Source: Candidatus Nealsonbacteria bacterium (lineage in GTDB: Bacteria; Patescibacteriota; Minisyncoccia; Minisyncoccales; RBG-13-36-15). Taken from it: DNA of 64,000 nucleotides. The stretch lies in NCBI GenBank assembly GCA_011050465.1, contig DRFQ01000009.1, positions 128,334-192,333 of the forward strand. Direction: 5' to 3'. The stretch's first letter is position 1. Each line of letters opens with the position of its first letter. Shown piece by piece: positions 5,487-37,462 of this stretch. A model generated the notes under the pieces. The model worked only from the letters and a program-made list of their open reading frames with translations. It was not told where the DNA came from and did not search any database. The position numbers were made by a program, and so were the translations under genes.

Positions 5487-5488
5487 TA

Positions 5489-5501
5489 TTGTGCGACATT
5501 T
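5489..5501 (+). repeat. TTGTGCGACATTT 13-mer copy
   Basis: The same 13-mer occurs at 25500-25512 and, reverse-complemented, at 36940-36952. Confidence 0.8.
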
Positions 5502-5597
5502 ATAGATTTGCTTTGTTAATTTTATTGTGTTAAAAAAAACATAAAAGGTCGAACGCTATTAAAGGGAAAATATATTATTGAAACAAGATACATAAAA

Positions 5598-6914: not shown

Positions 6915-7871
6915 TTATTCTTTTAGATTTTTGCCGCTGTGAAACTTGCGATGAATATCACGGAGACGTTTATTTGTTACATGGGTATATACTTGGGTTG
7001 TAACAATATTTCTATGGCCCAAAAACTCCTGAATGCTTCTTAAATCAACGCCCTGGCTTAACAGATCTGTAGCGTAAGAATGCCGAAGGGTGTGGGGGGT
7101 AGTAAAAACGGGGACACCGGCCAATACGGCGTATTTTTTTACGATTCTCTCTATGGACCGAGGCGTTAAACGACTCTCTGCATCTTTTCTGGCCCTATAA
7201 TGAATAAATAAGGCCTTTTCTTTGTCTTTTCGGGTATCCAGATATTTTTTAATCCAGGACAGAGCCCTTTCTGAAAAATAGACTGTTCTGGGATGGCTTC
7301 CTTTGCCAATAATACTAAGTTCTAAATCCTTCTTATCTCTTATATTAACAAATTGCTCTTGGTTAAGGGCAACTAATTCAGCTATTCTTAGGCCTGTTGA
7401 GAAAAAGGACTCTAAAATAGCCTTATCCCTTAAGCCAATAGTGTCTTTTAACTTGGGAGTTGTTAAAAGCTTCTCAATTTGCTCCAAATTAAGGAATTTT
7501 ACGGTTTTTTCCTTGCTGGCTGTCTTTGGAAGACCTATTTTATCTGCGGGGAGTGAAGCTATGTCTTTAGCTGTAAAATAGCCCAGAAGGGCTCTCAGGG
7601 CGATTAAATAGTAGTTCTGGGTGACTTTCTTGAGAGACTGGCCCTTATTGCCCTGAAATCTGGAAAGATAAAGTCTATAAGTCCAGATATCGTCAGCAGT
7701 CAATTCATGGGGTCTCAAATCCGCCTTTTTGGCTCCCTTAAGCCACGAAACAAACTTCCCAAGGTAATGCTTATAATTTTCCTGGGTTTTGTCTGCTAAA
7801 CCTTTTTCAACTTCGCAATAATCTAAAAAATCGGGAATATGTTTTAAAATTGGTTTATCTGATTGTTTCAT
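6915..7871 (-). CDS. tyrosine site-specific recombinase (XerC/D-like)
   Basis: C-terminal HTLRHSYATDLL...LGHRNIVTTQVYTHV (R-H-R-Y catalytic pattern) and an N-terminal SAM-like domain. Confidence 0.9.
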   Translation of the reverse strand: MKQSDKPILKHIPDFLDYCEVEKGLADKTQENYKHYLGKFVSWLKGAKKADLRPHELTADDIWTYRLYLSRFQGNKGQSLKKVTQNYYLIALRALLGYFTAKDIASLPADKIGLPKTASKEKTVKFLNLEQIEKLLTTPKLKDTIGLRDKAILESFFSTGLRIAELVALNQEQFVNIRDKKDLELSIIGKGSHPRTVYFSERALSWIKKYLDTRKDKEKALFIHYRARKDAESRLTPRSIERIVKKYAVLAGVPVFTTPHTLRHSYATDLLSQGVDLRSIQEFLGHRNIVTTQVYTHVTNKRLRDIHRKFHSGKNLKE

Positions 7872-8119
7872 ATCGCAATAGATTAACCGGCATTATTAGA
7901 GGAGTTTTTTAAGCCCGTATAATAATGTCGCTTTACCTACATTGTGCGACTATCTCTACCTCTATAATAAACGGGGCAAAAGGCCTTGTCAAGTGCTCCC
8001 CTATAGGTTTATATATAAAGTATTTTAGAAACAAAAAGTCAGCTTAATAAGCTGACCTTGATCCTCCTCTTTTCTTTACGACGTCGAGATATATTTGACA
8101 TTGTTTTTGGGTCCAATCG

Positions 8120-24729: not shown

Positions 24730-24744
24730 ATTTTTATTCTATCG

Positions 24745-25462: not shown

Positions 25463-25498
25463 GTTTTACTCTTAACGGCTCCACGACGCTTTTTATAC

Positions 25499-25512
25499 CT
25501 TGTGCGACATTT
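25499..25512 (+). repeat. left copy of the 14-bp inverted repeat CTTGTGCGACATTT
   Basis: Its exact reverse complement lies at 36940-36953. Confidence 0.85.
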
Positions 25513-25560
25513 GGTTTTAAACAAAATCTTCCTGGCCACATGGGATTATGCTAGAACATT

Positions 25561-27534
25561 TTATTCTAAATAGTCCTTGATCCATTCGATAAGAGTGGGG
25601 GGATCTTTCTTTTGGCTATAAATATATAGTTTTTTCTTTACTCGCGTGATAGACACTATAAATTGGCACAAAAGTTCATTTGTCACCTTGTCTTCATTAA
25701 AATTTACGAGAAAAACATAATCCGCACTAAGCCCTTTTGATCCCAGCGGATTAACAATCTTAATAGAAATATCTTTGTGACCCTCTTTACGAACGTTACT
25801 TCCCTTTATTTCCTTTTTTAATTTATTAAAAGCAATTTCAGAAGGATTATAACTAAACTGATTGAGGATAAATTTTCTTTCCTCATCGTTTATTTTTATG
25901 TTGTCATTAATCTTCTTTAATATTTTTAATACTTTCTTAATCTCACTTTGAATAGTTTTGGGTAATAGACTTCTAAAAACATCTTGTTCTGATTTGCTCT
26001 TCACGATGATTCTTTTAAATTCGGCTGATTTCATCTTGTCCTTAGACAGGATTCTCCAACCAAGATTGCGATCACTGTCCTTTAAAAGAAGCTCGTACCC
26101 CTCCATTTTGATATCATCTTTTCTTTTATTCTGAATATTCCTAAAACCTTTCTCGCGAAGATAATTTTCCATTTCATCTTTTTGCTTAGGAGATCCATGT
26201 GCACAAATTATTAATACAGAAAAATTTCTATCTCGTTCAAAAATCTCCTTAATATCCTTATCAATAAAGAAATCTACCCTCTGTACTTCTCCCCTATAAG
26301 AGATGTTTTGGTATTTTTTAGATATTGCATCTTTTTCTTCTGAACAAAAATACTCAAATCTTTTAGGAATCCTTTTTTTTAGAAATCCCCCTTTCTCGGC
26401 CTTAGATATGAGAGTATTAACAGAATCTATTATTACTTTTGGACAACGAGAACAAAAAGGAAGGGAACGATAAAAATAATTACTTTTAAAATTAAGGCAT
26501 CTAGAACGTATTTCTTCTGGATAAGCGTTTTTAAAATCATAAAGTGATTGATCGTCATCACCAACTATCAGAATCGGGCTTTCATCAGCTAATAAATCTA
26601 ACAATTTTATTTCTAACTTATTAAAATCTTGGAATTCGTCGATTAATATTTGAGAATATTGAGGTATTTCTTTTTTGTCTTTTTCGAAATGCTTTATTAA
26701 ATCGTAGACAGCACAACTCGGACCAATACAGTCATAGTATTTTCTTCTTTTAAAATAAAAAGCTAAAGCTTTAGAATTATTTCTATCCAATAAGTCATTA
26801 AAAATATCCTTAAAGGAAATCTTTCTCCCCTCGATAATATTAAAGTCCTCGCTTATAACATCCGCTATTTGCATAAAAACTTCGGGTTTCTCTGTGGAGC
26901 CTGGGAATAATTCATTCATAACAAAGCTATGCAATGTCCTTACATCGGCCAACTGTCCTAACCCAAACTTTAAATCATTCACTAATTCATTAATGAAGGT
27001 CATGATAAGGTTGTTATCATTTTCTTTCTTTTTACAAACCTTCTCAAACAAGAAAGTTTTTCCTGTTCCGGGCCCGGCCGCAACAACTATTTTAGGTTTA
27101 CTTGATATAATTATTTCATCGGTATGTATTTTTCTTTCTGCTTGATATAAAATTCTTCTCGAAACTTCAGGAGTAAGCCTACTTATAGTTTCTTTAAAAG
27201 TAAACCAATTTCCTTTCTTCTCTACTTTCTGTTCTTTTATTTTTTCACTTTCTGGCACTTCAGATAAATAGAAAAGAAAAAAGTGTATTGTCCTTGAAAT
27301 AGCAGAATCATCTTGATCTACTCTACCAATTTCTCCTTTGCATTCTATGTGGGCATAACCTGTTTTGTGCCTAATACTCTTTATGGCAGTTCCTTCTATG
27401 TTTATCAGATCGGTGTCGCATTTGACTCTGTCACCAATGAGTGACCACTCGTTATTACTTTTTCTCTGAATCAAATAATATTTTCCGTCACTAGGAGACC
27501 AAAGAACACTGACTATAAAAAACTCTTTCTTCAT
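25561..27534 (-). CDS. Nudix-like N-terminal domain fused to a UvrD/PcrA-type SF1 helicase
   Basis: First about 130 aa: Nudix-fold-like with a degenerate box (GDRVKCDTDLINIEGTAIKSIRHKTGY). Then AAGPGTGKTF (motif I), ILIDEFQDFN (II) and IVGDDDQSLY (III). Confidence 0.8.
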   Translation of the reverse strand: MKKEFFIVSVLWSPSDGKYYLIQRKSNNEWSLIGDRVKCDTDLINIEGTAIKSIRHKTGYAHIECKGEIGRVDQDDSAISRTIHFFLFYLSEVPESEKIKEQKVEKKGNWFTFKETISRLTPEVSRRILYQAERKIHTDEIIISSKPKIVVAAGPGTGKTFLFEKVCKKKENDNNLIMTFINELVNDLKFGLGQLADVRTLHSFVMNELFPGSTEKPEVFMQIADVISEDFNIIEGRKISFKDIFNDLLDRNNSKALAFYFKRRKYYDCIGPSCAVYDLIKHFEKDKKEIPQYSQILIDEFQDFNKLEIKLLDLLADESPILIVGDDDQSLYDFKNAYPEEIRSRCLNFKSNYFYRSLPFCSRCPKVIIDSVNTLISKAEKGGFLKKRIPKRFEYFCSEEKDAISKKYQNISYRGEVQRVDFFIDKDIKEIFERDRNFSVLIICAHGSPKQKDEMENYLREKGFRNIQNKRKDDIKMEGYELLLKDSDRNLGWRILSKDKMKSAEFKRIIVKSKSEQDVFRSLLPKTIQSEIKKVLKILKKINDNIKINDEERKFILNQFSYNPSEIAFNKLKKEIKGSNVRKEGHKDISIKIVNPLGSKGLSADYVFLVNFNEDKVTNELLCQFIVSITRVKKKLYIYSQKKDPPTLIEWIKDYLE

Positions 27535-27539
27535 ATGTT

Positions 27540-28193
27540 TTAATTACGAGATTTTCCTGTACGGGTTCTATAATAACACCACTTACAGTTGTTTGGGTCT
27601 TCTTTCGGAGTAGATCCATTTAGAAGTGCAGAAACCGCTGATATAAAAGAATAAAACCCCTTCATATCTTCCTTTATTTCAAACCAATGTGGCTTTGTCT
27701 TAAAAATAACATCATCTCCAGGAAATAAAATTTCCTCTGGACTTATAGCAACAACACCCATTTTACTCACCTTCCTTGGAGAACCAATTTCTGGATTTTC
27801 TAAAGAAAATTTGTATGCGTGTAATTGAGGAAAAAACTTGTTAAGTTTATCTTCACCAGGATTGGTTATCTTAAAGTCAATAACCGCATGCGTTCCATCC
27901 TCTAAACGAGAAACTATATCAAACCTACCGCTAATATAACAATCATCTGTAGGAGGTATGGGTTTTGATTTCAGAAATCCTTCCTTTACTTCAATTTTTC
28001 CTGCTGGCAATCCAGAATTAATCTCTCTTAAATCCATCCCAATAATCGCGTTTTGCAACAACGAATTCATTTTTGTAAAAACTCCTGGCATTCCTATCGA
28101 TGGAAGAGATACGCCATATTTTATCTTTTGGTAATAACAATACTTACAATCCTCGTAAAGATACTTAAAGTCAGATGGACTTAATTTAAACAT
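27540..28193 (-). CDS. Cas4/RecB-like PD-(D/E)xK nuclease with four Cys
   Basis: CKYC near the N-terminus, GRFD, VIDFK, QLHAYKF and C-terminal CKWC. Confidence 0.8.
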   Translation of the reverse strand: MFKLSPSDFKYLYEDCKYCYYQKIKYGVSLPSIGMPGVFTKMNSLLQNAIIGMDLREINSGLPAGKIEVKEGFLKSKPIPPTDDCYISGRFDIVSRLEDGTHAVIDFKITNPGEDKLNKFFPQLHAYKFSLENPEIGSPRKVSKMGVVAISPEEILFPGDDVIFKTKPHWFEIKEDMKGFYSFISAVSALLNGSTPKEDPNNCKWCYYRTRTGKSRN

Positions 28194-28225
28194 AATTTTA
28201 TTTCTTAATTAATTCTTTAACTTTG

Positions 28226-28504
28226 TTATTCTCCAAATCCAGCGCGCTTCATTTTCTCATTAATCGTTCTTTTCTCGCCCGGCAACCGCACCTTCACTAC
28301 TGGACGACCATATGATTTTCCTATCTCCTGAATATAAACCTGCTCTTCCTCTATCATTTCCCTTAATATCTCTTTCGCTTTCTTATAACCTCTTTGACCT
28401 TTTTCTGGCGCATATACTTCAGCAAGGCGATAAAATTGTCCTCTCGGGCCCTGAAAAGTATCTCCATCGCGAACTTTTTTAACGGTGATTTTTTTCATAG
28501 CCAA
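28226..28504 (-). CDS. miniature SNase (thermonuclease)-like protein
   Basis: KVRDGDTF...YRLAEVYAPE resembles the DGDT...RL.GIDTPE core, but the protein is only 92 aa and the catalytic set is incomplete. Confidence 0.4.
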   Translation of the reverse strand: MAMKKITVKKVRDGDTFQGPRGQFYRLAEVYAPEKGQRGYKKAKEILREMIEEEQVYIQEIGKSYGRPVVKVRLPGEKRTINEKMKRAGFGE

Positions 28505-28620
28505 TTATTAACTTTGGTTAATTATATCTTCGACCTTATATTTTATACCAAACAAAAAAAGGGGTCAAACCCTTTCTTAAGTTAAATTTCCCTCGACTTT
28601 GAGCTAAATTTTAGTTATTT

Positions 28621-29001
28621 TTACTCTCGGCTATACCATTCGTCTTCCTCGGATATTTTTGAAGGATAAAAATCGAGTTGTTCTGCCGGAATACTTAATT
28701 TAAACGCACCGAAGGCACGTGCTTCCTGCCAGGTGGATTTGTTATTAGGATCGATATTAAAAACTTTATCTTTAAAAATCACAATTAAATCTTTTCCCTC
28801 ATCATAAATGTGAAAATAATCAGGTCTATCCCCTATCATTGCATTCTGAATTTCTTTTATAGCGTCTTCTACCGGTTCTGTAATTTCAACGATATGCAAA
28901 TGCCAATTCTGCCTTTCTGAGAACTTCGTTCTAAGAATTCTATAATTCTCTAAAATTCTTGGATTTTCTAAGCTTTCCTCAATGATTATAGAGTGATACA
29001 T
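28621..29001 (-). CDS. hypothetical protein (126 aa)
   Basis: GAGGGA SD; sits in an operon with Dam. Confidence 0.5.
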   Translation of the reverse strand: MYHSIIIEESLENPRILENYRILRTKFSERQNWHLHIVEITEPVEDAIKEIQNAMIGDRPDYFHIYDEGKDLIVIFKDKVFNIDPNNKSTWQEARAFGAFKLSIPAEQLDFYPSKISEEDEWYSRE

Positions 29002-29041
29002 AAATTTCCCTCAATTTCGGGCTAAATTTTGATTAAAATAA

Positions 29042-29887
29042 CTATCGAGCTGCAGTTTTCGCTCTTGAGATTGAATCAGAAAAAATCATCAACTCGCGAG
29101 CCTTTCTAATCTTGCAAGAATCATAGACACTATACTTCAAACTAAGGCGTTTTCTCATCCTGTCGGGATAAAATTCTCTGATTTTTTTTACTTCATCGTA
29201 AGTCAATACCCAATTATAGTTAGTATTTGTATTTAATAAATCGGCGAGTTTCTTGTGATCATCCTCTTTATAGTGATTGAGATATAACATTGCACCCTTT
29301 TTAAAATATGGGGGATCTAAGTAAATAAAAGTGTTATTTCTATTTAAATATCTTCTCGTAAGTTGTATTCCATCTTTATTTAATACTGAAATACGGTCTT
29401 GAAATTTCCCAATCTTGCGAACCCGTAAAGCCAGTTTTTTCTTATTGTATCGCATATTTATTTTGTACGGACCGTCTTGATTCTTTCCCCCAATCGGCCC
29501 CGCATTCATTACGCCAGATCTATTAGTTCGATTAAGGAAAAAAGTGGCGAACCCTTTTTCAAAAATATTGGCATTCTTATTTAAATAAATTTGCTTTTGT
29601 TTTTTCCATTCAGTAATAGTCACTGGAGTCGTTATAATTTTCTGCGCAAATCGTTCTGAATTCTGGGTTACTGATTTCCAAAATGCATAAATCGTTTTGT
29701 CTAGATCATTTATGACTATTTGCCTGACCCTATTGTCAAACAACAAAGTTAAGGCTACCCCTGCGCCACCCGCATAAGGTTCGACGTAGGTCGGTTTATC
29801 CAAACCAATGGCAACCAAAATTCTTTTAAGCTCGTCTGCTAAAAATGTTTTACCTCCGGGATATCTTAATGGAGAATAAAATTCCAT
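29042..29887 (-). CDS. Dam-family (D12 class) N6-adenine DNA methyltransferase
   Basis: RYPGGK N-terminal motif and IYLDPPY catalytic motif. Confidence 0.9.
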   Translation of the reverse strand: MEFYSPLRYPGGKTFLADELKRILVAIGLDKPTYVEPYAGGAGVALTLLFDNRVRQIVINDLDKTIYAFWKSVTQNSERFAQKIITTPVTITEWKKQKQIYLNKNANIFEKGFATFFLNRTNRSGVMNAGPIGGKNQDGPYKINMRYNKKKLALRVRKIGKFQDRISVLNKDGIQLTRRYLNRNNTFIYLDPPYFKKGAMLYLNHYKEDDHKKLADLLNTNTNYNWVLTYDEVKKIREFYPDRMRKRLSLKYSVYDSCKIRKARELMIFSDSISRAKTAAR

Positions 29888-29894
29888 ATATAAA

Positions 29895-31331
29895 TCACCC
29901 TCTATTAATAATAAGAGATACTTTGATGTTCTTCAGTCTATCGTGGGTAAATGCTCTTTCTAGGGTAGAGTGTTTTTTAATCTTTTTTTCAGGATCATAG
30001 ATAAAGAAATAGATTCTTTTACAATCCGGACGTCTACTGTACTTAACTAAATCATCGTTCAATTCTTTCTCGATATTTTTTCTTATGCTTTTGTCGCCAC
30101 CTTTTCTTTTAAGAGTTGTTTTTACTTCAATAATAGTGCCGTTATCAAGAAGCAAGAAATCGCCTCTTGATGGCGAAGCTCCGTCTGAAGGATTCCATAC
30201 TTCATTCTCTACATCATCAAAAAACATAGTTAAAAGTGCGTGTAATAAATCTTGTACGTCATATTCATCGCCCATATTCAATGTTTCTCTATTCTTATAT
30301 CTATCTTTCAATTGTTCAGCAACAGCATCAAAATGGATTAAAACATGATCGACTATCTCTACCGCCTCTTGGAGTGGATACTTAACTGAGTTCCGTCGTC
30401 TTCTCAGTTTTAGACTTGGAATATTAGGACTTCTTCTTTTGCTTTTCTTTTTTTTCCGTAGCTTCGTTTTAGGAAACTTGATAGGATCTATTTTAGAAAA
30501 TACATTATCTAATAAATAATCTTTTGTAGCTTGTGCGGGTATCTTTTTCTCTCCAACAATATATGGGAGTAATTTCTTCAGATTACTTTCAGCATTTTTT
30601 CTATTTTTAAAGATGATATTCCCTTTATCGTCGATTAAATAATCAATTAGTTTTTTACCGTTTGCGCTTATAATTAACCTTTCAATTGTATTAAATCCTG
30701 TTTTGAGTAACTCCTCTTCTTTTTTTGCGCCCTCAACCTGGTCTAAAATGTATTCGTAGAAATATAATTTGCCTAACTCGTCTTTAAACTTTGCAGTAGT
30801 AGTCCCATATTCCTTAGAGGCGGAATCAACAGTATATTCACCCCCGTCTATCAAATTTCTGTACATTCTTAATCTCTGTAGAACTTGCCACGGTTTTAAG
30901 AGTTGGTTTACGTGAATATCCCAAATTTCCTTTTCTGCTTCTTTACGCGAGGGCGCAATAGTAATCTTTACACTTTTAAGTTGTCTTTTATTAAGAATCT
31001 TACCTAAACCTTCTAATTCCTTTTTGTTCCGTGCACCAGGGGCGAGTTTAGGATTTAATAGCAACTGACAAGCAGCTAATCTCCTATTTCCATCTAATAC
31101 AATTGATTCCCCATTTTCTTCACAAATAATAGCCACAGCGCTCCTGTGGTAACCATTATTAGCAATACTTCTAGCTATCATCATTACACCTTCTTTTTCT
31201 AAAAGATAATTACGTACTTGATTGACATCTTTTAATTCTTTTACGTGTTTTGGCACCCGAGGATTTTGCAAATCCAAGCTTAGTTCACTTATAGATACTT
31301 TTTTATCACGCCATTGTTTTTTTGCATCCAT
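29895..31331 (-). CDS. ParB/Srx-like N-terminal domain fused to a C-terminal PD-(D/E)xK-like nuclease domain
   Basis: IVLDGNRRLAA (ParB-N). C-terminus has DEYDVQD...RGDFLLLDNGTIIEVK (D...ExK). Confidence 0.65.
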   Translation of the reverse strand: MDAKKQWRDKKVSISELSLDLQNPRVPKHVKELKDVNQVRNYLLEKEGVMMIARSIANNGYHRSAVAIICEENGESIVLDGNRRLAACQLLLNPKLAPGARNKKELEGLGKILNKRQLKSVKITIAPSRKEAEKEIWDIHVNQLLKPWQVLQRLRMYRNLIDGGEYTVDSASKEYGTTTAKFKDELGKLYFYEYILDQVEGAKKEEELLKTGFNTIERLIISANGKKLIDYLIDDKGNIIFKNRKNAESNLKKLLPYIVGEKKIPAQATKDYLLDNVFSKIDPIKFPKTKLRKKKKSKRRSPNIPSLKLRRRRNSVKYPLQEAVEIVDHVLIHFDAVAEQLKDRYKNRETLNMGDEYDVQDLLHALLTMFFDDVENEVWNPSDGASPSRGDFLLLDNGTIIEVKTTLKRKGGDKSIRKNIEKELNDDLVKYSRRPDCKRIYFFIYDPEKKIKKHSTLERAFTHDRLKNIKVSLIINRG

Positions 31332-31359
31332 ATAATTATATTTTAATTTTATCTATCAA

Positions 31360-31530
31360 TTAACTCTTCAAGTTTTTACGATTCATGTGATAACGCATTT
31401 GTTCTCTGGTTCTCATGGTTTTTTCATCGGCAATATCAACCTTACCACATTTTGGGCATTTTTCCTTACAAACAGGACAATAAAACTCTCCGCACTTCTT
31501 ACATTTTATTTGCATAAATTGATGTGGCAT
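31360..31530 (-). CDS. 56-aa zinc-ribbon protein (below the track cutoff)
   Basis: MPHQFMQIKCKKCGEFYCPVCKEKCPKCGKVD... has three CxxC pairs. It lies 28 nt upstream of the ParB-fusion gene. No clear SD. Confidence 0.4.
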   Translation of the reverse strand: MPHQFMQIKCKKCGEFYCPVCKEKCPKCGKVDIADEKTMRTREQMRYHMNRKNLKS

Positions 31531-31592
31531 ATTGAGCTGAATTTGTCGCTTTTTGTGCCTTGCGCGACGTTTTTAGGCTAAATTTTAGTTAT

Positions 31593-31883
31593 TTATACAC
31601 TCAAACCAGCTTCTTTTCTAAAGGCTGGACGACTACATGCTAAAGAAGGGCTATATTTATAGGCCTTCAGGTGATGTTCAATGACTTCTTCTTTATTTTT
31701 TTCAAACCCGCCATATCCCAATAGCTTTTTAACAGCCAATTCTTCTAAAGATGAAGCAATTTTCCTTTGTATGGTCCAATTTACATTGTATTTTTTCCAA
31801 AGACTGACATCCTTCCATTTAAAAAATTCAAATTCTTCTTTTGTAAGCCGCGGGAATTTGTAGTTATACTTAGCAATTTTCAT
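31593..31883 (-). CDS. hypothetical protein (96 aa)
   Basis: 14-nt gap after the upstream gene. Confidence 0.5.
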   Translation of the reverse strand: MKIAKYNYKFPRLTKEEFEFFKWKDVSLWKKYNVNWTIQRKIASSLEELAVKKLLGYGGFEKNKEEVIEHHLKAYKYSPSLACSRPAFRKEAGLSV

Positions 31884-31897
31884 AAATTTGAGTTATT

Positions 31898-32842
31898 TTA
31901 GCCTAAACGTCGAATATACTCTTTGAAAGCTCTCTCTAAACGAATCATTGCATCAATCATTTTGTCTTGTAATTTCTCCCAATTTTCTTTATCGTTCAAT
32001 CCTTTCCCCTTAAATTTAATAGAAATTCGGGACGCACGAGCATTATCTAATCTTTCCCAATTTAGTCTTCCCTTAAACTTTTTTTCAATTTGATTCTTAT
32101 GTTTATATAATTTATCGAAACGAATTTTATTAATATTTGGCTTTATATAATCCTTACCTTTATCAAAATATATTTCACAACCACCGTATTTTTTTGTTAT
32201 TACGTAGCTGTAAATTATCCCTTGTTTGCCAGCACCGGTCCCAATCCAAGAATAAATACCGGGAGTAATATTTGAATGTAAAGATGTCTTTCCTTTAGCT
32301 TTTTCTAAAAGTGCTGTCCAAAATTCTTTTCTTAAAATGTGTCTTTTAGCATATTCCTTTTTCTTTTTACCAATAGTCTCAGACCCTTCTGATGGCCCGG
32401 CGATAATGGAAAATTTGGCAGCCGGATTGGAATTTCCTATTTTGTATGCTTCTATTTGTACTAAATAAAAAGCTGTCTCTGGGCCAAATTCATTCAACCA
32501 GTCAATTGCTCTTTCGTGCTCCTGCCTAGGGTTACTTGATATCCAGATAGCAATTTTTGCATCTAAATTTGCTAGATAAGTTAAAATTTTACCCAAATGT
32601 TCATGGTTTGTTTTCTCTAATTGATTTTCTATAACTACTTTCTGTCCGTTTTCGTCTTCTGCAATGATATCCACAGAAAAAGAACCCGCGTCACCTTCTC
32701 TGTCAATGGCTGTTAAATCCATATCTAATTCTTCTCCCAAAATTTCAATGTTATCGAAAAGCCAAGAGGTGAAATCTCTAGCTTCATTCTTCCAAACTTC
32801 CCTTAAAGGAACTTTTTTTATTCTTTCTATATGCTTTTTCAT
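31898..32842 (-). CDS. DUF4268-type protein with an N-terminal PD-(D/E)xK-like module
   Basis: FSVDIIAEDENGQKVVIENQLEKTNHEHLGKILTY pattern. Confidence 0.65.
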   Translation of the reverse strand: MKKHIERIKKVPLREVWKNEARDFTSWLFDNIEILGEELDMDLTAIDREGDAGSFSVDIIAEDENGQKVVIENQLEKTNHEHLGKILTYLANLDAKIAIWISSNPRQEHERAIDWLNEFGPETAFYLVQIEAYKIGNSNPAAKFSIIAGPSEGSETIGKKKKEYAKRHILRKEFWTALLEKAKGKTSLHSNITPGIYSWIGTGAGKQGIIYSYVITKKYGGCEIYFDKGKDYIKPNINKIRFDKLYKHKNQIEKKFKGRLNWERLDNARASRISIKFKGKGLNDKENWEKLQDKMIDAMIRLERAFKEYIRRLG

Positions 32843-32878
32843 GATTTTATTTCTAAATTAATTCTTCGATTTTTTCTT

Positions 32879-33736
32879 CTAAGCCGGGCAGTAATTTGAA
32901 AGCACTTTCTTATAACTATTCGTGTAGTTTTCGCTCTTTCTGAAATATTTTCTATCAACTGTCCCTTCTTTTATGTGATATTCTATCCCTTTCTCCTCGC
33001 AGAATTTTATAACTCTGTAGGCGCAATCATTGTAGAATGTTTTGTAACTATCAAAATAAGTAGTCAAGGCATTATAATTCCATCTACCGAAAACTATTTT
33101 ATCGACAAAAGCTATTTTTTCCAATATTTTGGTTAGATCCTGTTCAATAAGGTTAGGCGTAGGATAAGGTTCCATACTTACCCAAGTTTTCAAACCTTTA
33201 TTATGTAAGAACTTAAGGGTTTTTACTCTTTTTTCTATCGACACAGCGAATGGCTCTTTACTTCTTCTGAATTTTTCAGACAAAGTGATTATAGTCGAAC
33301 CGTATTCATTATCCCTGCCGTAAATATTTTTTTTAGTCAAAATTTTAGGATATATACCTTTACTTATAGTTACCACTTTTATATTGTCTTCATTCAATCT
33401 TTTGATAATTTCTAAGCTAAGATCTACTACTTCTTTTTGTTTATACATAAAAGGGTCTGTCGAAAAACACAAGTAGACATATTTTATATCTTTTTTATAT
33501 TTCGGAATTTCTAGATCTAATAATTCTAAGGCGTTGCTAACAATTTTAGGTCTTATCCATTCTTTGTAATTTTTAATGATCCCACACCTTTTTTTCATCA
33601 GCATTGCATAGCAAGGATAAGTACACCCATGAGAACATCCCTCAACGTGATTAATGCAATAATCAGCGTATTCTACCCCGCTTTTATATAAAAGAGATTT
33701 TCTAATGATTCTCTGCATACTATTATTATATATCAA
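32879..33736 (-). CDS. radical-SAM-like protein with a non-canonical Cx3Cx3C motif
   Basis: INHVEGCSHGCTYPCYAM, versus the canonical Cx3Cx2C in the paralog 22932..23717. Overlaps the upstream gene by 11 nt. Confidence 0.65.
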   Translation of the reverse strand: MIYNNSMQRIIRKSLLYKSGVEYADYCINHVEGCSHGCTYPCYAMLMKKRCGIIKNYKEWIRPKIVSNALELLDLEIPKYKKDIKYVYLCFSTDPFMYKQKEVVDLSLEIIKRLNEDNIKVVTISKGIYPKILTKKNIYGRDNEYGSTIITLSEKFRRSKEPFAVSIEKRVKTLKFLHNKGLKTWVSMEPYPTPNLIEQDLTKILEKIAFVDKIVFGRWNYNALTTYFDSYKTFYNDCAYRVIKFCEEKGIEYHIKEGTVDRKYFRKSENYTNSYKKVLSNYCPA

Positions 33737-34616
33737 AAAGAGCCTTCTGTGGATTTCTCGCCCTGAAGACTTTGGTTTTTTTCTCCCAGAATTCGATCCC
33801 CCTTTCGTGTTTACTGAATAAAATTAAATAATATAAGGAGGTGTTTTTAATATTTTTAAATATGACCAGTGACGGACTCGAGAAATAACCCAAACCTTTT
33901 ATCATATCGATATAATTCTTACATAAATTTCTGATATTTATTTCTTTACTATTTCCCCAGGTTTTTTTATTAGCAATGTCTTTCCATCCAGGATGGAACT
34001 TATCTAATTTCTTAGAATTTAATTTTCTAATTAAGGCAGCAGAAACCGCTCTTTCAACAGAAGCTATTGGGTAATTCACTATTAAGTCTATCTTCCTTTT
34101 TGCTAATTGTTTGTAAGAACTGAAATGAAATTGCAAACTGTCGGGATCTATAACGGCTAAACTTAAAGAATTATCAGAAATAGATTTTTTTATAATGTTT
34201 CCTATAGCCAAATTACAGTCTTCGTTATAATATTCTACACTGTTTTTTTCTTTTGCTCTTTGTTTTAAGCTGTTTATACAGACTGGATTTTTGTCTATTA
34301 AAAAATATTTTGTAAATTTATTCTTTAAATTTATTGCCTCTAGGCAGGTTCCATCTATTTCTTTTAATCCCTCTCTAATAATACACTTTCCTGGGCCCGA
34401 AAATAAATCTATATAATAAAGTTTTGGCCATTTCTTTTTCATCGCCCCCGAAAAAATATCAATGAAATATTTCAAATGTTCAATTTTATCCTTTGACCAA
34501 TAACCGGAACAACGCAAAGCCAACCCGTCATTTTTAGATTTATATTTTTGACATATTCCATCGTTATTATTTACGCAATTACCGTTTTTATAAAACTTAC
34601 ATTTTTTCATAATCAA
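33726..34616 (-). CDS. TcmP-like (three-Cys-motif partner protein) candidate
   Basis: YWSKDKIEHLKYFIDIF...KLYYIDLFSGPGKC fits the remembered W.x.K...L..Y...Y(I/V)D.F(A/S)G.G pattern. Has an extra Cys-rich N-terminus. Confidence 0.55.
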   Translation of the reverse strand: MIMKKCKFYKNGNCVNNNDGICQKYKSKNDGLALRCSGYWSKDKIEHLKYFIDIFSGAMKKKWPKLYYIDLFSGPGKCIIREGLKEIDGTCLEAINLKNKFTKYFLIDKNPVCINSLKQRAKEKNSVEYYNEDCNLAIGNIIKKSISDNSLSLAVIDPDSLQFHFSSYKQLAKRKIDLIVNYPIASVERAVSAALIRKLNSKKLDKFHPGWKDIANKKTWGNSKEINIRNLCKNYIDMIKGLGYFSSPSLVIFKNIKNTSLYYLILFSKHERGIEFWEKKTKVFRARNPQKALFDI

Positions 34617-34688
34617 AAAACCGTCCTAATGAGTGACCTCTACTCTGTTCAATTTTCTGTAATTTAATTTTCTTCATTTTCCATAATT

Positions 34689-35777
34689 TTATTTTCCAGA
34701 TTTAGTTCGATTGTCTTGTTTACACAACATCTGGCAATTCTCTGAAATAGTTTTTCCACCTTCATGCCAAGGCTTTATGTGGTCAGCTTCCATTTCTTCT
34801 ATTTCGAAATACTTCTTGCATTTTGTGCAGACACCTTTTTGTCTCTCATACGCCTCTCGTTTCATTTTGTCAGTAAACGCGCGTATTGAGAGATATTTTT
34901 CTTGTCTAGTCAATACATAAGGGTAAATGCCTGGTTTTTTCGTTACGTCTTCATCTTGCATTAATTCAGCAATCTCGGTTTCTAGTTTATCGACACTTAG
35001 TTTTTTGTCTTTGAATTGATTGTATGGTTCACCCCATTGCACGCTCTTCATCTCTCTGCGATAATTCGTGAAAGTCTTCCTCACCCACGCTATTACATTT
35101 TGGAAATAGTCCCACAGCTCGTCGGCATTCATGTATTGTTGGTGTTTGGCCATGTAATCTTCAATTTTTCCATAGTTGATCCACGAAAGAACAGTTTCCA
35201 AATATTCTTGTCGGATTGGTTTACCGCTGACTAATTGCCCACCGTCATTTGCCAGCAGATACGCAGCGCAGTTTGTTTTGCTAAATTTTAATTTAGCGTC
35301 GGAGAGCCATGGTCCAGTGTAAACTGCATTCCTCAGTTCTTGGTCGGTCAGTTTTTCACCGGCGATATTGATAATTCTAAACCAATCAAGGCGTTCTTTG
35401 TCTGTGCCCTCGCAGATGTAAATCATGAGCTTATAATCCAAAATCTGTTTTTTTTCTTCGCCAGTTAAGTTGTGGAAATAGAGATTATCCAGTGAAAAAT
35501 CTCCGTTCACATATTGCCCAATGCTAATGGTGCGCTGTTGACCATCAAGCATCTCAAAACAATTTTTGTTTTTCAACCAATACATTACATTGAGTGGAAA
35601 ATTCTTGCGTATGGATTCGATAACTTCTTTGCGTTGTTTATCGTTATAGATAAATTCACGTTGATATTTTGGGCGAATATCGAGTTTATCACCATAAGCC
35701 ACAACACCTTCTTCGGCACTGTCTTTGTAGTCCTCGATCACTTCGCGTATTGAAATTTGGTGTAGTTTAATTTTCAT
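34689..35777 (-). CDS. DUF262 (GmrSD N-terminal, ParB-like) domain fused to an HNH endonuclease
   Basis: IRPKYQREF and LDGQQRT (DUF262). C-terminal CTKCKK...ADHIKPWHEGGKT...NCQMLCKQDNRTK (HNH). Confidence 0.85.
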   Translation of the reverse strand: MKIKLHQISIREVIEDYKDSAEEGVVAYGDKLDIRPKYQREFIYNDKQRKEVIESIRKNFPLNVMYWLKNKNCFEMLDGQQRTISIGQYVNGDFSLDNLYFHNLTGEEKKQILDYKLMIYICEGTDKERLDWFRIINIAGEKLTDQELRNAVYTGPWLSDAKLKFSKTNCAAYLLANDGGQLVSGKPIRQEYLETVLSWINYGKIEDYMAKHQQYMNADELWDYFQNVIAWVRKTFTNYRREMKSVQWGEPYNQFKDKKLSVDKLETEIAELMQDEDVTKKPGIYPYVLTRQEKYLSIRAFTDKMKREAYERQKGVCTKCKKYFEIEEMEADHIKPWHEGGKTISENCQMLCKQDNRTKSGK

Positions 35778-35786
35778 ACTAATTCT

Positions 35787-36830
35787 TTATTTTTTATTTT
35801 TAATTAAAATGCGCGCGTAGATTTCTTTGCCGTCTATCGTAAACCTTTTTCCGTAATTTGGATTGTCTTCGACATACCTGTCTATGCCGATAATCTCAAA
35901 CTGCTTGGGATTATATTTATCAACAAATGTAATTGGAACACCCATTACACCTTTGTAGTCCATTGGAATATCAACATACCGATTTATATTGATAGCATCA
36001 TAGTCGTCATACTTGGGATATTCTTCTGAGCTGTACTTTTTATACAAAGTAAGTTCTTCGTGACGTTTTGTTGTATCAAGATTTGTAAACCACGCGATAT
36101 TGCCCATGCTAAAATATTTCACACCATCTTCAATTTTTATTCTCGACTCAGTTTGTATGTCATAGTTCTCGGGAACTTGAAACCACTTTGTGCCGCCATT
36201 GTCATATCCAAGCCATAACCTATTTTCTTTAATTAGTTTGAAAATTTCTTTGTACGTAATGGCGTTTTGATTACCAAGGATCAAAAACTTTCTGTTGTAT
36301 TCCATAAGTTGCTCAACGTATTCACGAAATAGTGAAAACGGGGGGTTTGTTACCACTATATCAGCTCGTTTGAGCAGTTCTGTGCACTCATCGCTTCGAA
36401 AATCACCTTCTCTATTTAAGGGGGTTGCGGTGTTTTTGTCGTGCTTTAGTAAATACTTTACATCGTCGAGGTTTACCGCACCATCGCCGTCGATATCCGA
36501 CACTTCTTTGATTTCGATTTTGAACGGCTCCTTGCCCGTCGGCTTTAGTCCTTCCACCTCAAACAGTGGCAATTGCCCGCCGGCAATCGGCGATTTAACA
36601 TAACTCGTAGTGATGAGTTTTGTTAACCCCAGCGCGTTGAAATTAGCAGCAAAATACTTAAAGAAGTTGCTCTCGAACGGATCATCGCAGTTACAGTACA
36701 CAACTTTACCACGGAATTGGTCCTTGTAGTGCTTCGCCTCTTTTTCAATATCAGAAAGCTGCGTATAAAACTCGTCTTTCTTTGCTTTGTTTGCTCTAAG
36801 GAAAGATGTATTTAAAGATTTAGTTTTCAT
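35787..36830 (-). CDS. EcoRI-methylase-like N6-adenine DNA methyltransferase
   Basis: DEFYTQLSDIEKE...YCNCDDPFESNFFKYF and DIVVTNPPFSLFREY. Confidence 0.8.
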   Translation of the reverse strand: MKTKSLNTSFLRANKAKKDEFYTQLSDIEKEAKHYKDQFRGKVVYCNCDDPFESNFFKYFAANFNALGLTKLITTSYVKSPIAGGQLPLFEVEGLKPTGKEPFKIEIKEVSDIDGDGAVNLDDVKYLLKHDKNTATPLNREGDFRSDECTELLKRADIVVTNPPFSLFREYVEQLMEYNRKFLILGNQNAITYKEIFKLIKENRLWLGYDNGGTKWFQVPENYDIQTESRIKIEDGVKYFSMGNIAWFTNLDTTKRHEELTLYKKYSSEEYPKYDDYDAININRYVDIPMDYKGVMGVPITFVDKYNPKQFEIIGIDRYVEDNPNYGKRFTIDGKEIYARILIKNKK

Positions 36831-36905
36831 AAGGTTATTTTAATTAATCTACCTTAATTTTGCCACTTTTGGATTATTTTGTCTATTTATCAAAGATCTA
36901 AATAC

Positions 36906-36935
36906 TCGACATTTGTCGACATTTGTCGACATTTT
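36906..36935. repeat. three 10-bp-phased TGTCGACA palindromes (iteron/operator-like)
   Basis: TCGACATTTGTCGACATTTGTCGACATTTT, 76-105 bp upstream of the methylase ATG. Confidence 0.8.
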
Positions 36936-36939
36936 CTTG

Positions 36940-36953
36940 AAATGTCGCACAAG
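36940..36953 (-). repeat. right copy of the 14-bp inverted repeat
   Basis: Plus strand reads AAATGTCGCACAAG, the reverse complement of 25499-25512. Confidence 0.85.
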
Positions 36954-36994
36954 ATGCGTTATGCGACGCACATCATGATTATACGTATCAGGGA

Positions 36995-37027
36995 AACAAA
37001 AAAGGCCTCTGGCTGGTGCCTGAGGCT
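36995..37027 (-). terminator. T1-family terminator (cassette a)
   Basis: Minus strand reads GCCTCAGGCACCAGCCAGAGGCC plus a T-run. The 30 nt at 36999-37028 are identical to 37464-37493. Confidence 0.8.
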
Positions 37028-37040
37028 AAGGAATTCTTGA

Positions 37041-37388: not shown

Positions 37389-37431
37389 TGTTTTCACCTC
37401 CACAGGTTGTATAAGAGCTATTTGATACTTC

Positions 37432-37460: not shown

Positions 37461-37462
37461 AA

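What the first reader, a model, noticed from the sequence alone, without database searches (positions are those of the whole stretch)
25499..36953. 11.4-kb co-directional helicase/nuclease/methylase island bracketed by a 14-bp inverted repeat
Fourteen ORFs between the HD-domain gene and the cassette array (25561-36830) all lie on the minus strand, and most carry nucleic-acid-targeting domains:
- a UvrD helicase fusion
- a Cas4-like nuclease and a mini-SNase
- a Dam methylase and a ParB-N/PD-ExK fusion
- a DUF4268-like nuclease
- a Cx3Cx3C radical-SAM-like protein with a TcmP-like partner
- DUF262-HNH and an EcoRI-M-like methylase

CTTGTGCGACATTT sits at 25499-25512, and its exact reverse complement sits at 36940-36953, just outside the first and last genes. 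The 13-mer core recurs at 5489-5501. A near copy (ATTGTGCGAC, 7940-7949) lies in the promoter region of the tyrosine recombinase.

This layout fits a defence or mobile island with terminal inverted repeats. Alternatively, the motif is an operator: at 25499 it lies in the spacer next to the TATAAA box of the HD gene.
Basis: partly seen in the sequence, partly recalled or inferred. Interest (0 to 1): 0.8.

Follow-up and report, generated by a model that had tools for sequence, protein, structure and literature searches.

The report
Defence island flanked by dif-like half-sites
An 11.4-kb cluster of anti-phage defence genes in an uncultured Nealsonbacteria (CPR) genome is bordered by partial copies of a conserved 28-bp site that sits beside the chromosome's Xer recombinase gene. 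This suggests, but does not prove, that the cell's own chromosome-resolving recombinase helped assemble the island.

Summary
The 14-bp inverted repeat is exact (25499-25512 / 36940-36953) and non-random. It encloses 12 co-directional ORFs of at least 60 aa plus one 56-aa ORF, not 14.

HMMs identify these systems:
- a Type II R-M pair
- PD-Lambda-5 (A+B)
- PDC-S11
- PDC-M41 (TcmP plus a 3-Cys partner)
- a GajB-like helicase / PD-(D/E)XK / SNase group

The repeat is not a transposon end. Its invariant 12-mer AATGTCGCACAA is the core of a 28-bp site, ..AATGT|CGCACA|ATATTAA.., with 6-8 of 11 inverted arm positions. That site lies at 5479-5506, next to a conserved XerC/D-like gene, where gene orientation and GC skew switch. 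The same site holds the same position and orientation in two other Nealsonbacteria genomes and occurs in three phage contigs, so it is a candidate dif.

The island copies keep one arm plus the central region, with that arm facing inward. A 22/26 direct repeat (25487-25512 / 31547-31572) splits the island. A 99.7%-identical strain diverges exactly at the motif. In another genome, inverted copies bracket xer plus the PDC-M11 pair.

Best reading: a mosaic defence island whose module boundaries are Xer/dif-like sites, resembling dif modules or IMEX. An operator role remains possible.

The parts
25499..25512 (+). Site B. A half-site: inner arm ACATTT plus central TGTGCG (read on the other strand, AAATGT|CGCACA|AG). 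The conserved arm faces the island. It lies in the spacer next to the TATAAA box of the HD gene.
   Evidence: A strain with a 99.7%-identical HD gene (L005) loses homology to the window at 25501.
25487..25512 (+). Direct repeat DR1: site B plus 13 nt of the HD-promoter side.
   Evidence: 22/26 identical to 31547-31572. None of 500 shuffles reached 22.
31547..31572 (+). Direct repeat DR2. It contains a degenerate motif copy (CTTGCGCGACGTTT, 2 mismatches) in the 260-nt gap inside the island. It divides the island into module 1 (25513-31546) and module 2 (31573-36939).
36940..36953 (-). Site C. A half-site in inverted orientation to B, with the conserved arm facing the island. Its 11-nt arm TCTTGAAATGT matches that of the full site at 9 of 11 positions.
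36907..36936 (+). Three tandem 10-bp units CGACATTTGT (arm-like units). They lie just upstream of the promoter-like hexamers of the R-M genes.
36961..36973 (-). A further degenerate unit (ATGTGCGTCGCAT on the minus strand), outside site C.
   Evidence: Read directly.
5479..5506 (-). Full 28-bp site (candidate dif): TCTATAAATGT|CGCACA|ATATTAATCAG, with 6 of 11 inverted arm positions.
   Evidence: A 20-mer is identical in L166 and differs at 1 of 20 in L165. The site lies at the GC-skew and gene-orientation switch.
6915..7871 (-). XerC/D-like tyrosine recombinase. It is a conserved core gene of Nealsonbacteria.
   Evidence: Pfam Phage_integrase 3e-37. NCBIfam XerD 216 bits and XerC 213 bits, both below cut-off. 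All 120 listed homologues are 73-100% identical, and most are 318 aa.
7924..7950 (-). Conserved element in the xer leader: GTCGCACAATGTAGGTAAAGCGACATT, a GTCGC-N14-GCGAC inverted repeat. It lies downstream of a TTGACA-17-TATTAT promoter.
   Evidence: Conserved upstream of xer in the window, L165 and L166.
35787..36830 (-). EcoRI-family N6-adenine methyltransferase (Type II R-M, M subunit).
   Evidence: Pfam 4.6e-136. PADLOC MTase_II 5.5e-125. 75-89% identical homologues occur across phyla.
34689..35777 (-). Type II restriction endonuclease (DUF262/GmrSD_N plus HNH).
   Evidence: PADLOC REase_II 1.5e-130 over the full length. The M+R pair is conserved as a 2.1-kb unit, 75-78% nucleotide identity, in L163 and L164.
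33726..34616 (-). TcmP, the three-Cys-motif partner protein (PDC-M41A).
   Evidence: NCBIfam TIGR04474 4.7e-32, above cut-off. PADLOC PDC-M41A 4e-18.
32879..33736 (-). Radical-SAM-like / DUF5131-like partner (weak PDC-M41B).
   Evidence: Pfam hits are below cut-off. PADLOC PDC-M41B 7.6e-6.
31898..32842 (-). PDC-S11 candidate single-gene defence protein (DUF4268).
   Evidence: PADLOC 5.9e-125 over the full length. Pfam DUF4268 3.9e-30.
31593..31883 (-). 96-aa protein of unknown function.
   Evidence: No significant family match.
31360..31530 (-). 56-aa zinc-ribbon ORF, called as a gene in the JGI record.
   Evidence: Only sub-threshold zinc-ribbon hits.
29895..31331 (-). PD-Lambda-5_A-like protein with a C-terminal DpnII/MboI-type nuclease domain.
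   Evidence: PADLOC PD-Lambda-5_A 7.9e-27 over residues 6-267. Pfam DpnII-MboI 5.5e-39 over residues 326-474.
29042..29887 (-). PD-Lambda-5_B, a D12-class (Dam-family) adenine methyltransferase.
   Evidence: PADLOC 1.6e-106. Pfam MethyltransfD12 6e-21.
28621..29001 (-). 126-aa protein of unknown function. It is followed by a terminator-like hairpin and a promoter-like site (28540-28580).
25561..28504 (-). A group of three genes: SNase-like (28226-28504), PD-(D/E)XK nuclease (27540-28193) and UvrD/GajB-like helicase (25561-27534).
   Evidence: No GajA partner is present, so this is not Gabija.

Best explanation
The region is a mosaic anti-phage defence island in the chromosome of an uncultured Candidatus Nealsonbacteria (Patescibacteria/CPR).

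**Content.** It holds a Type II R-M pair, the PDC-M41 pair, PDC-S11, PD-Lambda-5 and a helicase/nuclease group. These were acquired as separate modules.

**What the repeat is.** The flanking 14-bp inverted repeat is not a transposon end. It is half (one arm plus the 6-bp central region) of a conserved 28-bp site, ..AATGT|CGCACA|ATATTAA... The full copy lies next to the xer gene at the apparent replication terminus. I take that full copy to be the lineage's dif site.

**Inferred mechanism.** The host Xer recombinase, or an earlier Xer-dependent element, used such dif-like sites to insert or exchange DNA next to the HD gene.
- Module 1 (25513-31546) is flanked by a 26-nt direct repeat containing the motif. 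This is the geometry of an integrated element that uses the host recombinase.
- The whole island is bounded by inverted half-sites with the conserved arm facing inward. The same geometry appears around xer plus a PDC-M11 defence pair in another Nealsonbacteria genome.

**Shown.**
- The gene content.
- The repeats and their statistics.
- Conservation and position of the full site.
- The strain breakpoint.
- The phage copies.

**Inferred.**
- That the 28-bp site is dif.
- That Xer acts on the half-sites.
- That this is how the island was built.
For: 1. **Defence content.** Full-length or strong HMM matches. The R-M pair is a 2.1-kb unit, 75-78% identical in unrelated contexts.
2. **Island absent elsewhere.** No island gene lies next to HD in the 132 related loci compared by tblastn. 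Contig L005 has a 99.7%-identical HD gene but diverges from the window at 25501, inside the motif, with recQ upstream.
3. **The 12-mer AATGTCGCACAA is xer-linked.** It occurs 3 times in the window, twice in L165 and once in L166 (both xer loci; Xer 82-83% identical). It occurs 0 times in about 1.33 Mb of HD-centred loci of relatives.
4. **Position of the full site.** It lies at the + to - switch of GC skew and gene orientation in all three genomes. The AATGT arm faces xer each time.
5. **No promoter to regulate.** In L165 and L166 the full site lies between convergent genes.
6. **Site architecture.** With central CGCACA, the 11-nt arms are 6, 8 and 7 of 11 inverted, against a random mean of 3. 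Sites B, C and L005 score 3, 3 and 2, so they are half-sites (alignment).
7. **Direct repeat.** 22/26 identity between 25487-25512 and 31547-31572, with 0 of 500 shuffles reaching 22.
8. **Parallel case.** In L165, inverted near-full copies bracket xer plus PDC-M11A/B (2e-115 and 8.5e-37), with AATGT arms inward, as for B and C.
9. **Phage copies.** The 18-mer is exact in 3 phage contigs. One phi29-like contig carries a tandem array.
10. **Precedents in the literature.**
   - xerS lies adjacent to difSL (PMC5357621).
   - CTX-type attP shares only one side of dif (same paper).
   - dif modules are flanked by inversely oriented Xer sites, including on chromosomes (PMC6449649, PMC12907356).
Against: - B and C lack the second arm (3 of 11, which is random). 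They are therefore not complete Xer sites and may be inactive relics.
- B and C are inverted, so recombination between them would invert the island, not excise it.
- The island lies 20-31 kb from the candidate dif, with housekeeping genes in between.
- The island occurs in only one genomic context across all contigs recovered. Contigs cross both B and C without a break, so there is no sign of ongoing rearrangement.
- B, DR2 and C all sit just upstream of genes. DR1 and DR2 include a -10-like box, which fits a shared promoter/operator module equally well.
- Composition does not mark the boundaries. GC is 0.346 versus 0.375 (p = 0.02), and GC3 is no different.
- The terminus assignment rests on local skew, which is confounded with gene strand.
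- Uniqueness of the full site in a whole genome could not be checked.
- Relative to L005, the window also differs by a roughly 90-nt indel on the HD side of the motif. The breakpoint is therefore not a clean single crossover.
Confidence: 0.5

Rival explanations
1. The motif is an operator, or part of a reused promoter module. A DNA-binding protein recognises AATGTCGCACAA (core TGT-N3-ACA) and co-regulates HD, the zinc-ribbon/PD-Lambda-5 genes, the R-M genes and xer. Under this reading, the bracket around the island is a by-product of two regulated promoters.
For: - B overlaps the spacer next to the TATAAA box of HD.
- DR2 repeats 26 nt of that promoter region 17 nt upstream of the zinc-ribbon ORF.
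- C, with its 10-bp-phased repeats, lies directly upstream of promoter-like hexamers of the R-M genes.
- A conserved inverted repeat lies in the xer leader.
- All copies are intergenic.
Against: - The full site in L165 and L166 lies between convergent genes and terminators, with nothing to regulate.
- Its orientation relative to transcription varies.
- Its 18-20 nt are identical across species with Xer about 82% identical, which is more than usual for an operator.
- The motif is absent upstream of HD in 53 other species.
- The motif is absent upstream of the same R-M module in L163 and L164. In L163 a C-protein gene occupies that position instead.
- No regulator gene is evident in the island.
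Confidence: 0.25
2. B, C and DR2 are inert relics. They are scars of old rearrangements or insertions near the terminus that happened to copy part of the dif region, and they have no present function in either recombination or regulation.
For: - They are half-sites with random second arms.
- DR2 is degenerate, with 4 differences in 26 nt.
- No structural heterogeneity was found in the source population.
- Synteny in this lineage is very fluid.
Against: - B and C are exact over 14 nt and share a derived G not present in the full site. This implies recent common origin or selection.
- L005 keeps the 12-mer at the same junction although both sides have changed.
- The inward-arm geometry recurs in L165.
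Confidence: 0.2
3. The 14-bp repeats are the terminal inverted repeats of a transposon-like element that moved the whole 11.4-kb island.
For: The repeats form an exact 14-bp inverted pair just outside the first and last genes.
Against: - The island has no transposase or integrase.
- There is no target-site duplication.
- The motif remains beside HD in the strain lacking the island.
- The same sequence is a conserved chromosomal site in other species.
- The island was never found in a second context.
- There was no hit in phage records.
Confidence: 0.03

Closest known systems
Acinetobacter dif modules (pdif / chromosomal dif-like sites flanking accessory gene modules)
   Same: - Accessory gene modules with no recombinase of their own.
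- Bounded by inversely oriented copies of the host Xer site.
- Several modules can be strung together into an island.
- Extra dif-like sites occur on the chromosome away from the main dif (PMC6449649, PMC12907356).
   Different: - In Acinetobacter the flanking sites are complete 28-bp XerC/XerD sites, and identical modules are seen in many plasmids.
- Here the island copies are half-sites.
- The cargo is defence rather than resistance genes.
- The host appears to have one Xer-type gene nearby.
- No second context of the module was found.
IMEX (integrative mobile elements exploiting Xer, such as CTX-phi, TLC-phi and the gonococcal genetic island)
   Same: - No integrase of their own.
- Flanked by direct repeats of dif-like sequence.
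- attP may share only one arm plus the overlap region with dif (PMC5357621).
- Module 1 here is flanked by a 22/26 direct repeat containing arm plus centre.
- Phage contigs carry the same site.
   Different: - IMEX integrate at the main dif. This island is 20-31 kb from it.
- The outer pair of sites is inverted.
- No phage or replication genes are present in the island.
Single-recombinase Xer systems with a linked site (XerS/difSL, XerH/difH)
   Same: The recombinase gene and its site form one neighbourhood at the terminus. In the review's words, xerS is 'immediately adjacent' to difSL (PMC5357621; PMC2731167).
   Different: - The sequence of the site is unrelated.
- The spacing is 0.3-2 kb and can hold cargo genes.
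- Whether this lineage has a second Xer is unknown.
Defence islands of R-M and newer systems, including genomic islands with R-M in Patescibacteria
   Same: - Clustering of R-M, PD-Lambda-5 and PADLOC candidate systems.
- Genomic islands carrying R-M systems have been described in Patescibacteria (PMC12455944).
- PD-Lambda-5 is a validated compact R-M plus Abi-like system (PMC9519451).
   Different: What is new here is the link between the island's boundaries and a conserved xer-linked site.

Membership tests
dif site (chromosome dimer resolution site) | About 28 bp: two imperfectly inverted 11-bp arms around a 6-8 bp central region. | tested here: met
   With central CGCACA, the arms are 6, 8 and 7 of 11 inverted in the window, L165 and L166, against a random mean of 3. 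The register was chosen after seeing the sequences.
dif site (chromosome dimer resolution site) | Located at the replication terminus (GC-skew switch). | tested here: inconclusive
   A local + to - switch of skew and of gene orientation occurs at the site in three genomes. Skew is confounded with gene strand, and no whole-genome skew could be computed.
dif site (chromosome dimer resolution site) | Conserved among related species. | tested here: met
   The 20-mer is identical in L166 and differs at 1 of 20 in L165 (Xer 82-83% identical), while the flanks are not alignable.
dif site (chromosome dimer resolution site) | One functional copy per chromosome. | not testable with these tools
   Only 74 kb of this genome and 9 kb of each relative were available. 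L165 has a second near-full copy.
dif site (chromosome dimer resolution site) | Bound and recombined by Xer, dependent on FtsK. | not testable with these tools
   This needs biochemistry or genetics.
dif module (Acinetobacter type) | Module bounded by two complete Xer sites in inverse orientation. | tested here: not met
   B and C are inverted but have only one arm plus the centre; the second arm is 3 of 11. In L165 one of the two sites is complete (8 of 11) and the other is not (3 of 11).
dif module (Acinetobacter type) | The same module is found in different contexts. | tested here: not met
   The island and its parts were recovered only in one context. Only the R-M pair recurs elsewhere, and it does so without the sites.
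IMEX | No own recombinase; flanked by direct dif-like repeats. | tested here: met
   Module 1 is flanked by the 22/26 direct repeat 25487-25512 / 31547-31572. The island has no recombinase.
IMEX | Integrated at the chromosomal dif. | tested here: not met
   The island is 20-31 kb from the candidate dif at 5479-5506.
Transposon / IS with terminal inverted repeats | A transposase gene and a target-site duplication outside the repeats. | tested here: not met
   No transposase is present. The flanks TTTATAC and ATGCGTT are unrelated.
Integron | An IntI-type integrase with attI and attC-bounded cassettes. | tested here: not met
   The recombinase scores best as XerD/XerC. The integron-integrase model gives 90 bits against a cut-off of 265. 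The recombinase is a conserved core gene. No attC-like repeats occur in the island.
Type II restriction-modification system | Adjacent methyltransferase and endonuclease genes. | tested here: met
   MTase_II 5.5e-125 and REase_II 1.5e-130. The pair is conserved in L163 and L164.
PD-Lambda-5 | Both A and B proteins present and adjacent. | tested here: met
   A 7.9e-27 (N-terminal 267 aa) and B 1.6e-106. The C-terminal DpnII-MboI nuclease domain of A differs from part of the profile.
PDC-M41 (TcmP plus three-Cys partner) | Both A and B proteins. | tested here: inconclusive
   A is strong (TIGR04474 4.7e-32). B is weak (7.6e-6).
Gabija | GajA (OLD-family ATPase/TOPRIM) together with GajB. | tested here: not met
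   Only the helicase matches GajB (9e-20). No GajA is present.

The most novel reading that the evidence does not exclude
Nealsonbacteria, and perhaps other CPR bacteria with tiny genomes and no mobile-element integrases of their own, use the housekeeping Xer recombinase and dif-like sites as a general docking system for accessory DNA. Under this reading:
- defence modules are captured, stacked and exchanged at the main dif (as PDC-M11 next to xer in L165) and at secondary half-sites (as this island);
- their phages carry the same site to exploit the same enzyme.
Probability: 0.3. Interest if true: 0.75.

Novelty: new variant of a known kind. Interest (0 to 1): 0.58.

Why it matters
- **A candidate dif for CPR bacteria.** My literature searches found no paper holding both 'Patescibacteria' and the Xer/dif terms among the top results. 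If the reading is right, it supplies the first candidate dif site for this group, together with a linked xer gene.
- **A new setting for a known mechanism.** It would extend the 'dif module' / IMEX way of moving genes, so far seen mainly in Acinetobacter, Vibrio, Neisseria and Legionellales. The new setting is anti-phage defence genes in an ultra-small, uncultured lineage.
- **Possible phage-host links.** It would connect three phage contigs to likely Nealsonbacteria-type hosts through a shared site.
- **If the operator reading is right instead.** The finding reduces to an ordinary defence island with a shared regulatory motif.

Tried and rejected
- **Phage or prophage origin of the island.** No nucleotide match in 50,697 phage records.
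- **Structured RNA or tRNA at the boundaries.** No Rfam or ARAGORN hit in the window or in L005, L145, L147 or L151. A tRNA-like GTTCGAATCC next to the motif in L005 remains unexplained.
- **Empty-site comparison in relatives.** The 53 genome loci and 80 metagenome loci around HD homologues are at most 76% identical and share almost no synteny. Precise boundaries could not be compared.
- **Alternative contexts for island proteins.** All exact-match contigs show the same arrangement.
- **Motif as part of the R-M module.** Rejected: the module recurs in L163 and L164 without it.
- **Site C or the xer-leader element as a canonical dif.** Rejected: the arms are back-to-back or out of register.
- **A single inversion between A and B to explain Gmad2-HD adjacency in L011 and L084.** Rejected because A and B are in direct orientation.
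- **Other known sites (from my own knowledge of their consensus sequences).** E. coli/B. subtilis dif, Ter, matS, parS, DnaA box, CRP and LexA boxes showed no convincing match.
- **14-mer scan of viral contigs.** It returned only chance-level hits.
- **20-mer tandem-repeat scan of viral contigs.** It found nothing.
- **Xer homologue scan of viral contigs.** It found only a 26%-identical relative.
- **A 2-mismatch copy at 18321.** It lies in a small basic ORF and is taken as chance.
- **Composition.** GC and GC3 do not delimit the island.

Full report
**1. The observation**

The 14-mer CTTGTGCGACATTT is exact at 25499-25512 (+) and 36940-36953 (-). A 13/14 copy lies at 5488-5501, and the core TGTGCGAC recurs at 7943-7950. 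None of 100 shuffles of the window gave four matches. An exact inverted match of 14 nt between the two intergenic regions flanking the island was never approached in 2000 shuffles, where the maximum was 12.

Between the repeats, all ORFs lie on the minus strand. There are twelve of at least 60 aa plus a 56-aa zinc-ribbon ORF that the JGI annotation also calls. The count is therefore 13, not 14.

Three tandem 10-bp CGACATTTGT units (36907-36936) abut the inverted copy. Another degenerate unit lies just outside it, at 36961-36973.

**2. What the genes are**

Pfam, NCBIfam and PADLOC give the following.

| Coordinates | Assignment | Evidence |
|---|---|---|
| 35787-36830 | EcoRI-family MTase | Pfam 4.6e-136; PADLOC MTase_II 5.5e-125 |
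| 34689-35777 | DUF262+HNH Type II REase | PADLOC REase_II 1.5e-130, full length |
| 33726-34616 | TcmP | TIGR04474 4.7e-32; PDC-M41A |
| 32879-33736 | Radical-SAM-like partner | Weak; PDC-M41B 7.6e-6 |
| 31898-32842 | PDC-S11 / DUF4268 | 5.9e-125 |
| 29895-31331 | PD-Lambda-5_A-like N-terminus plus DpnII/MboI nuclease | See parts list |
| 29042-29887 | PD-Lambda-5_B, Dam-family MTase | 1.6e-106 |
| 25561-28504 | GajB-like UvrD helicase, weak Cas4-like PD-(D/E)XK nuclease, short SNase-like protein | No GajA present |

PD-Lambda-5 is an experimentally validated system, described by its authors as a compact R-M plus Abi system (PMC9519451).

The island is not one operon. A terminator-like hairpin and a promoter-like site lie at 28540-28580, and a 260-nt gap lies at 31332-31592.

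The M+R pair recurs as a 2.1-kb unit, 75-78% nucleotide identity, in two unrelated contigs with different neighbours. Its MTase has 75-89% identical homologues in Dehalococcoides, Omnitrophota, Elusimicrobiota and several CPR groups. The island is therefore a mosaic of separately acquired modules.

**3. Organism and population**

Source annotations name the host Candidatus Nealsonbacteria. The HD protein next to the island is at most 76% identical to homologues in other Parcubacteria MAGs.

Every contig carrying exact copies of island or flank proteins shows the same arrangement. These come from marine-sediment samples, a 258.7-kb JGI contig and GCA_011049515.1. Contigs cross both repeat copies without a break, so the source population shows no sign of ongoing rearrangement.

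No island gene lies next to HD in the 132 related loci compared by tblastn. Synteny there is too weak to define an empty site.

GC is slightly lower in the island (0.346 versus 0.375, p = 0.02). GC3 is not different, and the left flank is equally AT-rich.

**4. A strain-level breakpoint**

Contig L005 comes from another sample. Its HD gene and proximal promoter are 99.7% identical to the window, but homology stops at window position 25501, inside the motif.

Upstream of that point L005 has a recQ gene. The 12-mer AATGTCGCACAA is retained, about 90 nt further from the HD -10 box.

Seven recQ contigs from other samples all branch about 30 nt before the motif. The motif therefore stays with the junction while both the distal DNA and part of the proximal DNA differ. 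That argues against transposon ends.

**5. The key result: the motif belongs to the xer locus**

The recombinase at 6915-7871 scores equally as XerD and XerC (216 and 213 bits, both below cut-off). All 120 listed homologues are 73-100% identical, and most are 318 aa, so it is a core gene of this lineage.

I fetched two other xer loci: L165, and L166 from the 639.5-kb genome CP179888.1. Their Xer proteins are 82-83% identical to the window's. Both contain the motif.

- **The full site.** TAAATGTCGCACAATATTAA is identical in the window (5483-5502) and L166, and differs at 1 of 20 in L165. In each genome it lies beyond the 3' end of xer.
- **The leader element.** GTCGCRCAATGTAGGTAAAGCGACAYT lies 45-75 nt upstream of the xer start codon in all three.
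- **Distribution of the 12-mer.** It occurs three times in the window, once in L005, twice in L165 and once in L166. It is absent from about 1.33 Mb of HD-centred loci of relatives.
- **Position.** In all three genomes the full site sits where GC skew and gene orientation switch from + to -, the signature of a terminus. The AATGT arm faces xer each time.
- **No promoter nearby.** In L165 and L166 the site lies between convergent genes and terminators, so there is no promoter for it to regulate.
- **Architecture.** Read as 11-6-11 with central CGCACA, the arms are 6, 8 and 7 of 11 inverted, against a random mean of 3.

These are the defining properties of a dif site. A recombinase gene linked to its site is known from XerS/difSL (PMC5357621). 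I rate 'candidate dif' at about 0.65. Whole-genome position, uniqueness and Xer activity are untested.

**6. What the island copies are**

In alignment A1, all eleven sites share the invariant 12-mer. Seven 'full' sites share AATGTCGCACAATATTAA. Sites B, C and the L005 site keep only AATGTCGCACAA followed by G or A, and their second arm is random at 3, 3 and 2 of 11. They are half-sites: one arm plus the central region.

- B and C share a G where the full site has T, so they are closer to each other than to the full site.
- In both, the conserved arm faces into the island.
- A degenerate copy lies inside the island at 31559-31572.
- Together with 13 nt of adjoining sequence, that copy forms a 22/26 direct repeat with the B region (25487-25512 / 31547-31572). 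None of 500 shuffles reached 22.

Module 1 (helicase/nuclease group plus PD-Lambda-5) is therefore flanked by direct repeats. That is the geometry of an element integrated by a host recombinase. The island as a whole is flanked by inverted half-sites.

**7. The same pattern elsewhere**

In L165, a second near-full copy lies upstream of xer in inverse orientation, with about 25 of 28 nt shared by hand count. The pair brackets xer plus two genes that match the PADLOC candidate system PDC-M11A/B at 2e-115 and 8.5e-37. Again the AATGT arms face inward.

The 18-mer occurs exactly in three IMG/VR contigs with phage structural or replication genes:

- **L169, a phi29-like contig.** It has two tandem copies 21 nt apart plus an inverted CGACATT.
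- **L167.** The copy lies between an HNH endonuclease gene and the terminase genes.
- **L168.** The copy lies between a stop codon and a terminator.

Two or three chance hits to an 18-mer are conceivable in that collection by my rough estimate. The tandem array is not.

**8. Interpretation**

The defence-island reading is solid. The bracket is best explained as partial copies of the lineage's Xer site marking module boundaries.

The closest known systems are the Acinetobacter dif modules, including chromosomal 'dif module islands' (PMC6449649, PMC12907356), and IMEX. For IMEX, one arm plus the overlap region is enough for integration (PMC5357621).

Membership in either family fails on defining points:

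- the island sites are half-sites;
- the island is 20-31 kb from the candidate dif;
- no second context was found.

I therefore call it a new variant, not a member.

The main rival is a shared promoter/operator module, at about 0.25. It is favoured by the promoter-proximal positions of B, DR2 and C. It is disfavoured by the behaviour of the full site and by the motif's absence upstream of HD and of the same R-M module in other organisms. Inert relics (about 0.2) and transposon ends (about 0.03) are the other rivals.

**9. Limits**

- The 11-6-11 register was chosen after seeing the sequences.
- Local skew is confounded with gene strand.
- The L005 junction comes from one short contig.

Noticed in passing
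window 5479-8120 and L152 1-9402: Apparent replication terminus. Genes run on the + strand for at least 17 kb to the left, then almost all on the - strand to the right. A bidirectional terminator lies at 6858-6916 between the PG-binding gene and xer. GC skew flips at about 6-7 kb.
   Followed up: partly
window 36990-45400: A 'cassette array' of small ORFs on both strands. It has a repeated consensus promoter (TTGACAAATAACTAAGGATGTAATAT at 37436, 37818, 38287, 39078 and 40823) and a repeated terminator (AAACAAAAAGGCCTCTGGC..). Nested long inverted repeats (41154-41250 / 45281-45377, 97 nt, 91%; 38844-38898 / 44464-44518) surround obg.
   Followed up: no
window 17755-17835 and 24730-24858: An 80-100 nt repeated leader lies upstream of pyrB and upstream of the ABC-transporter genes. 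It contains TTAATTACGRARTAATTACAGGGAA (two copies before pyrB) followed by a terminator-like hairpin. It may be an attenuator or RNA-binding element. There was no Rfam match.
   Followed up: no
window 18924-18978 and 25470-25498; L005 1679-1785: A shared promoter-like module, CTATTAAGGG..CAAAAGGTATAAAAA(G/C)CGTCGTG, lies upstream of HD and of the gene at 18364-18867. It is tandemly duplicated in strain L005.
   Followed up: partly
window 28583-28629, 29001-29047, 31557-31603; and 28191-28224, 31342-31375, 32840-32873: Two families of repeated junction sequences lie inside the island. One follows stop codons and ends in GAGGGAAATTTA+ATG. The other is a shared 5' leader before three different defence genes.
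   Followed up: partly
L005 1640-1680; L147/L151 upstream of recQ: tRNA-3'-end-like strings (GTTCGAATCCTAGCCCCA next to the motif; GGTTCGAGTCTTAATGGGGGAGC upstream of recQ) flank recQ in the variant strain. ARAGORN and Rfam find nothing. The best named relatives of recQ are Omnitrophota, at about 70% identity.
   Followed up: partly
window 1723-1749; L153 11125-11226: A 99.7%-identical strain (ERZ23486227) has roughly 75 extra bases here, next to the repeated element AACTTAGGCGGGCTTG (also at 41198 and 45320). Several assemblies break at this point.
   Followed up: no
window 30734, 31273-31292, 31768: Contigs of three independent assemblies end within or near the start of the PD-Lambda-5_A gene and the internal gap. 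This hints at strain heterogeneity or repeats near the internal motif copy.
   Followed up: no
L163 97-294: The closest R-M module homologue (87% MTase identity) carries an HTH_3 controller-type gene directly upstream of the MTase. The window has the motif array in that position and no such gene.
   Followed up: partly
L169 75-150; L167 1443-1460; L168 5475-5492: Three IMG/VR phage contigs carry the exact 18-mer of the candidate dif. They are a phi29-like contig, an HNH/terminase contig and a 47%-GC contig with a Dda-like helicase. They could give a phage-host link for Nealsonbacteria.
   Followed up: partly
window 18219-18335 (-): A small, very basic ORF (MKNSHNPNRNRNRTRRRRFLKRHRKK.., about 38 aa) lies in an otherwise 'intergenic' stretch.
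   Followed up: no
L011 8995-10552; L084 8238-10552: In other Nealsonbacteria, the homologue of the Gmad2-domain gene (window 4944-5486, which ends at the candidate dif) lies directly upstream of HD. In the window, HD starts at site B. The two motif-bearing junctions are therefore neighbours in relatives.
   Followed up: partly
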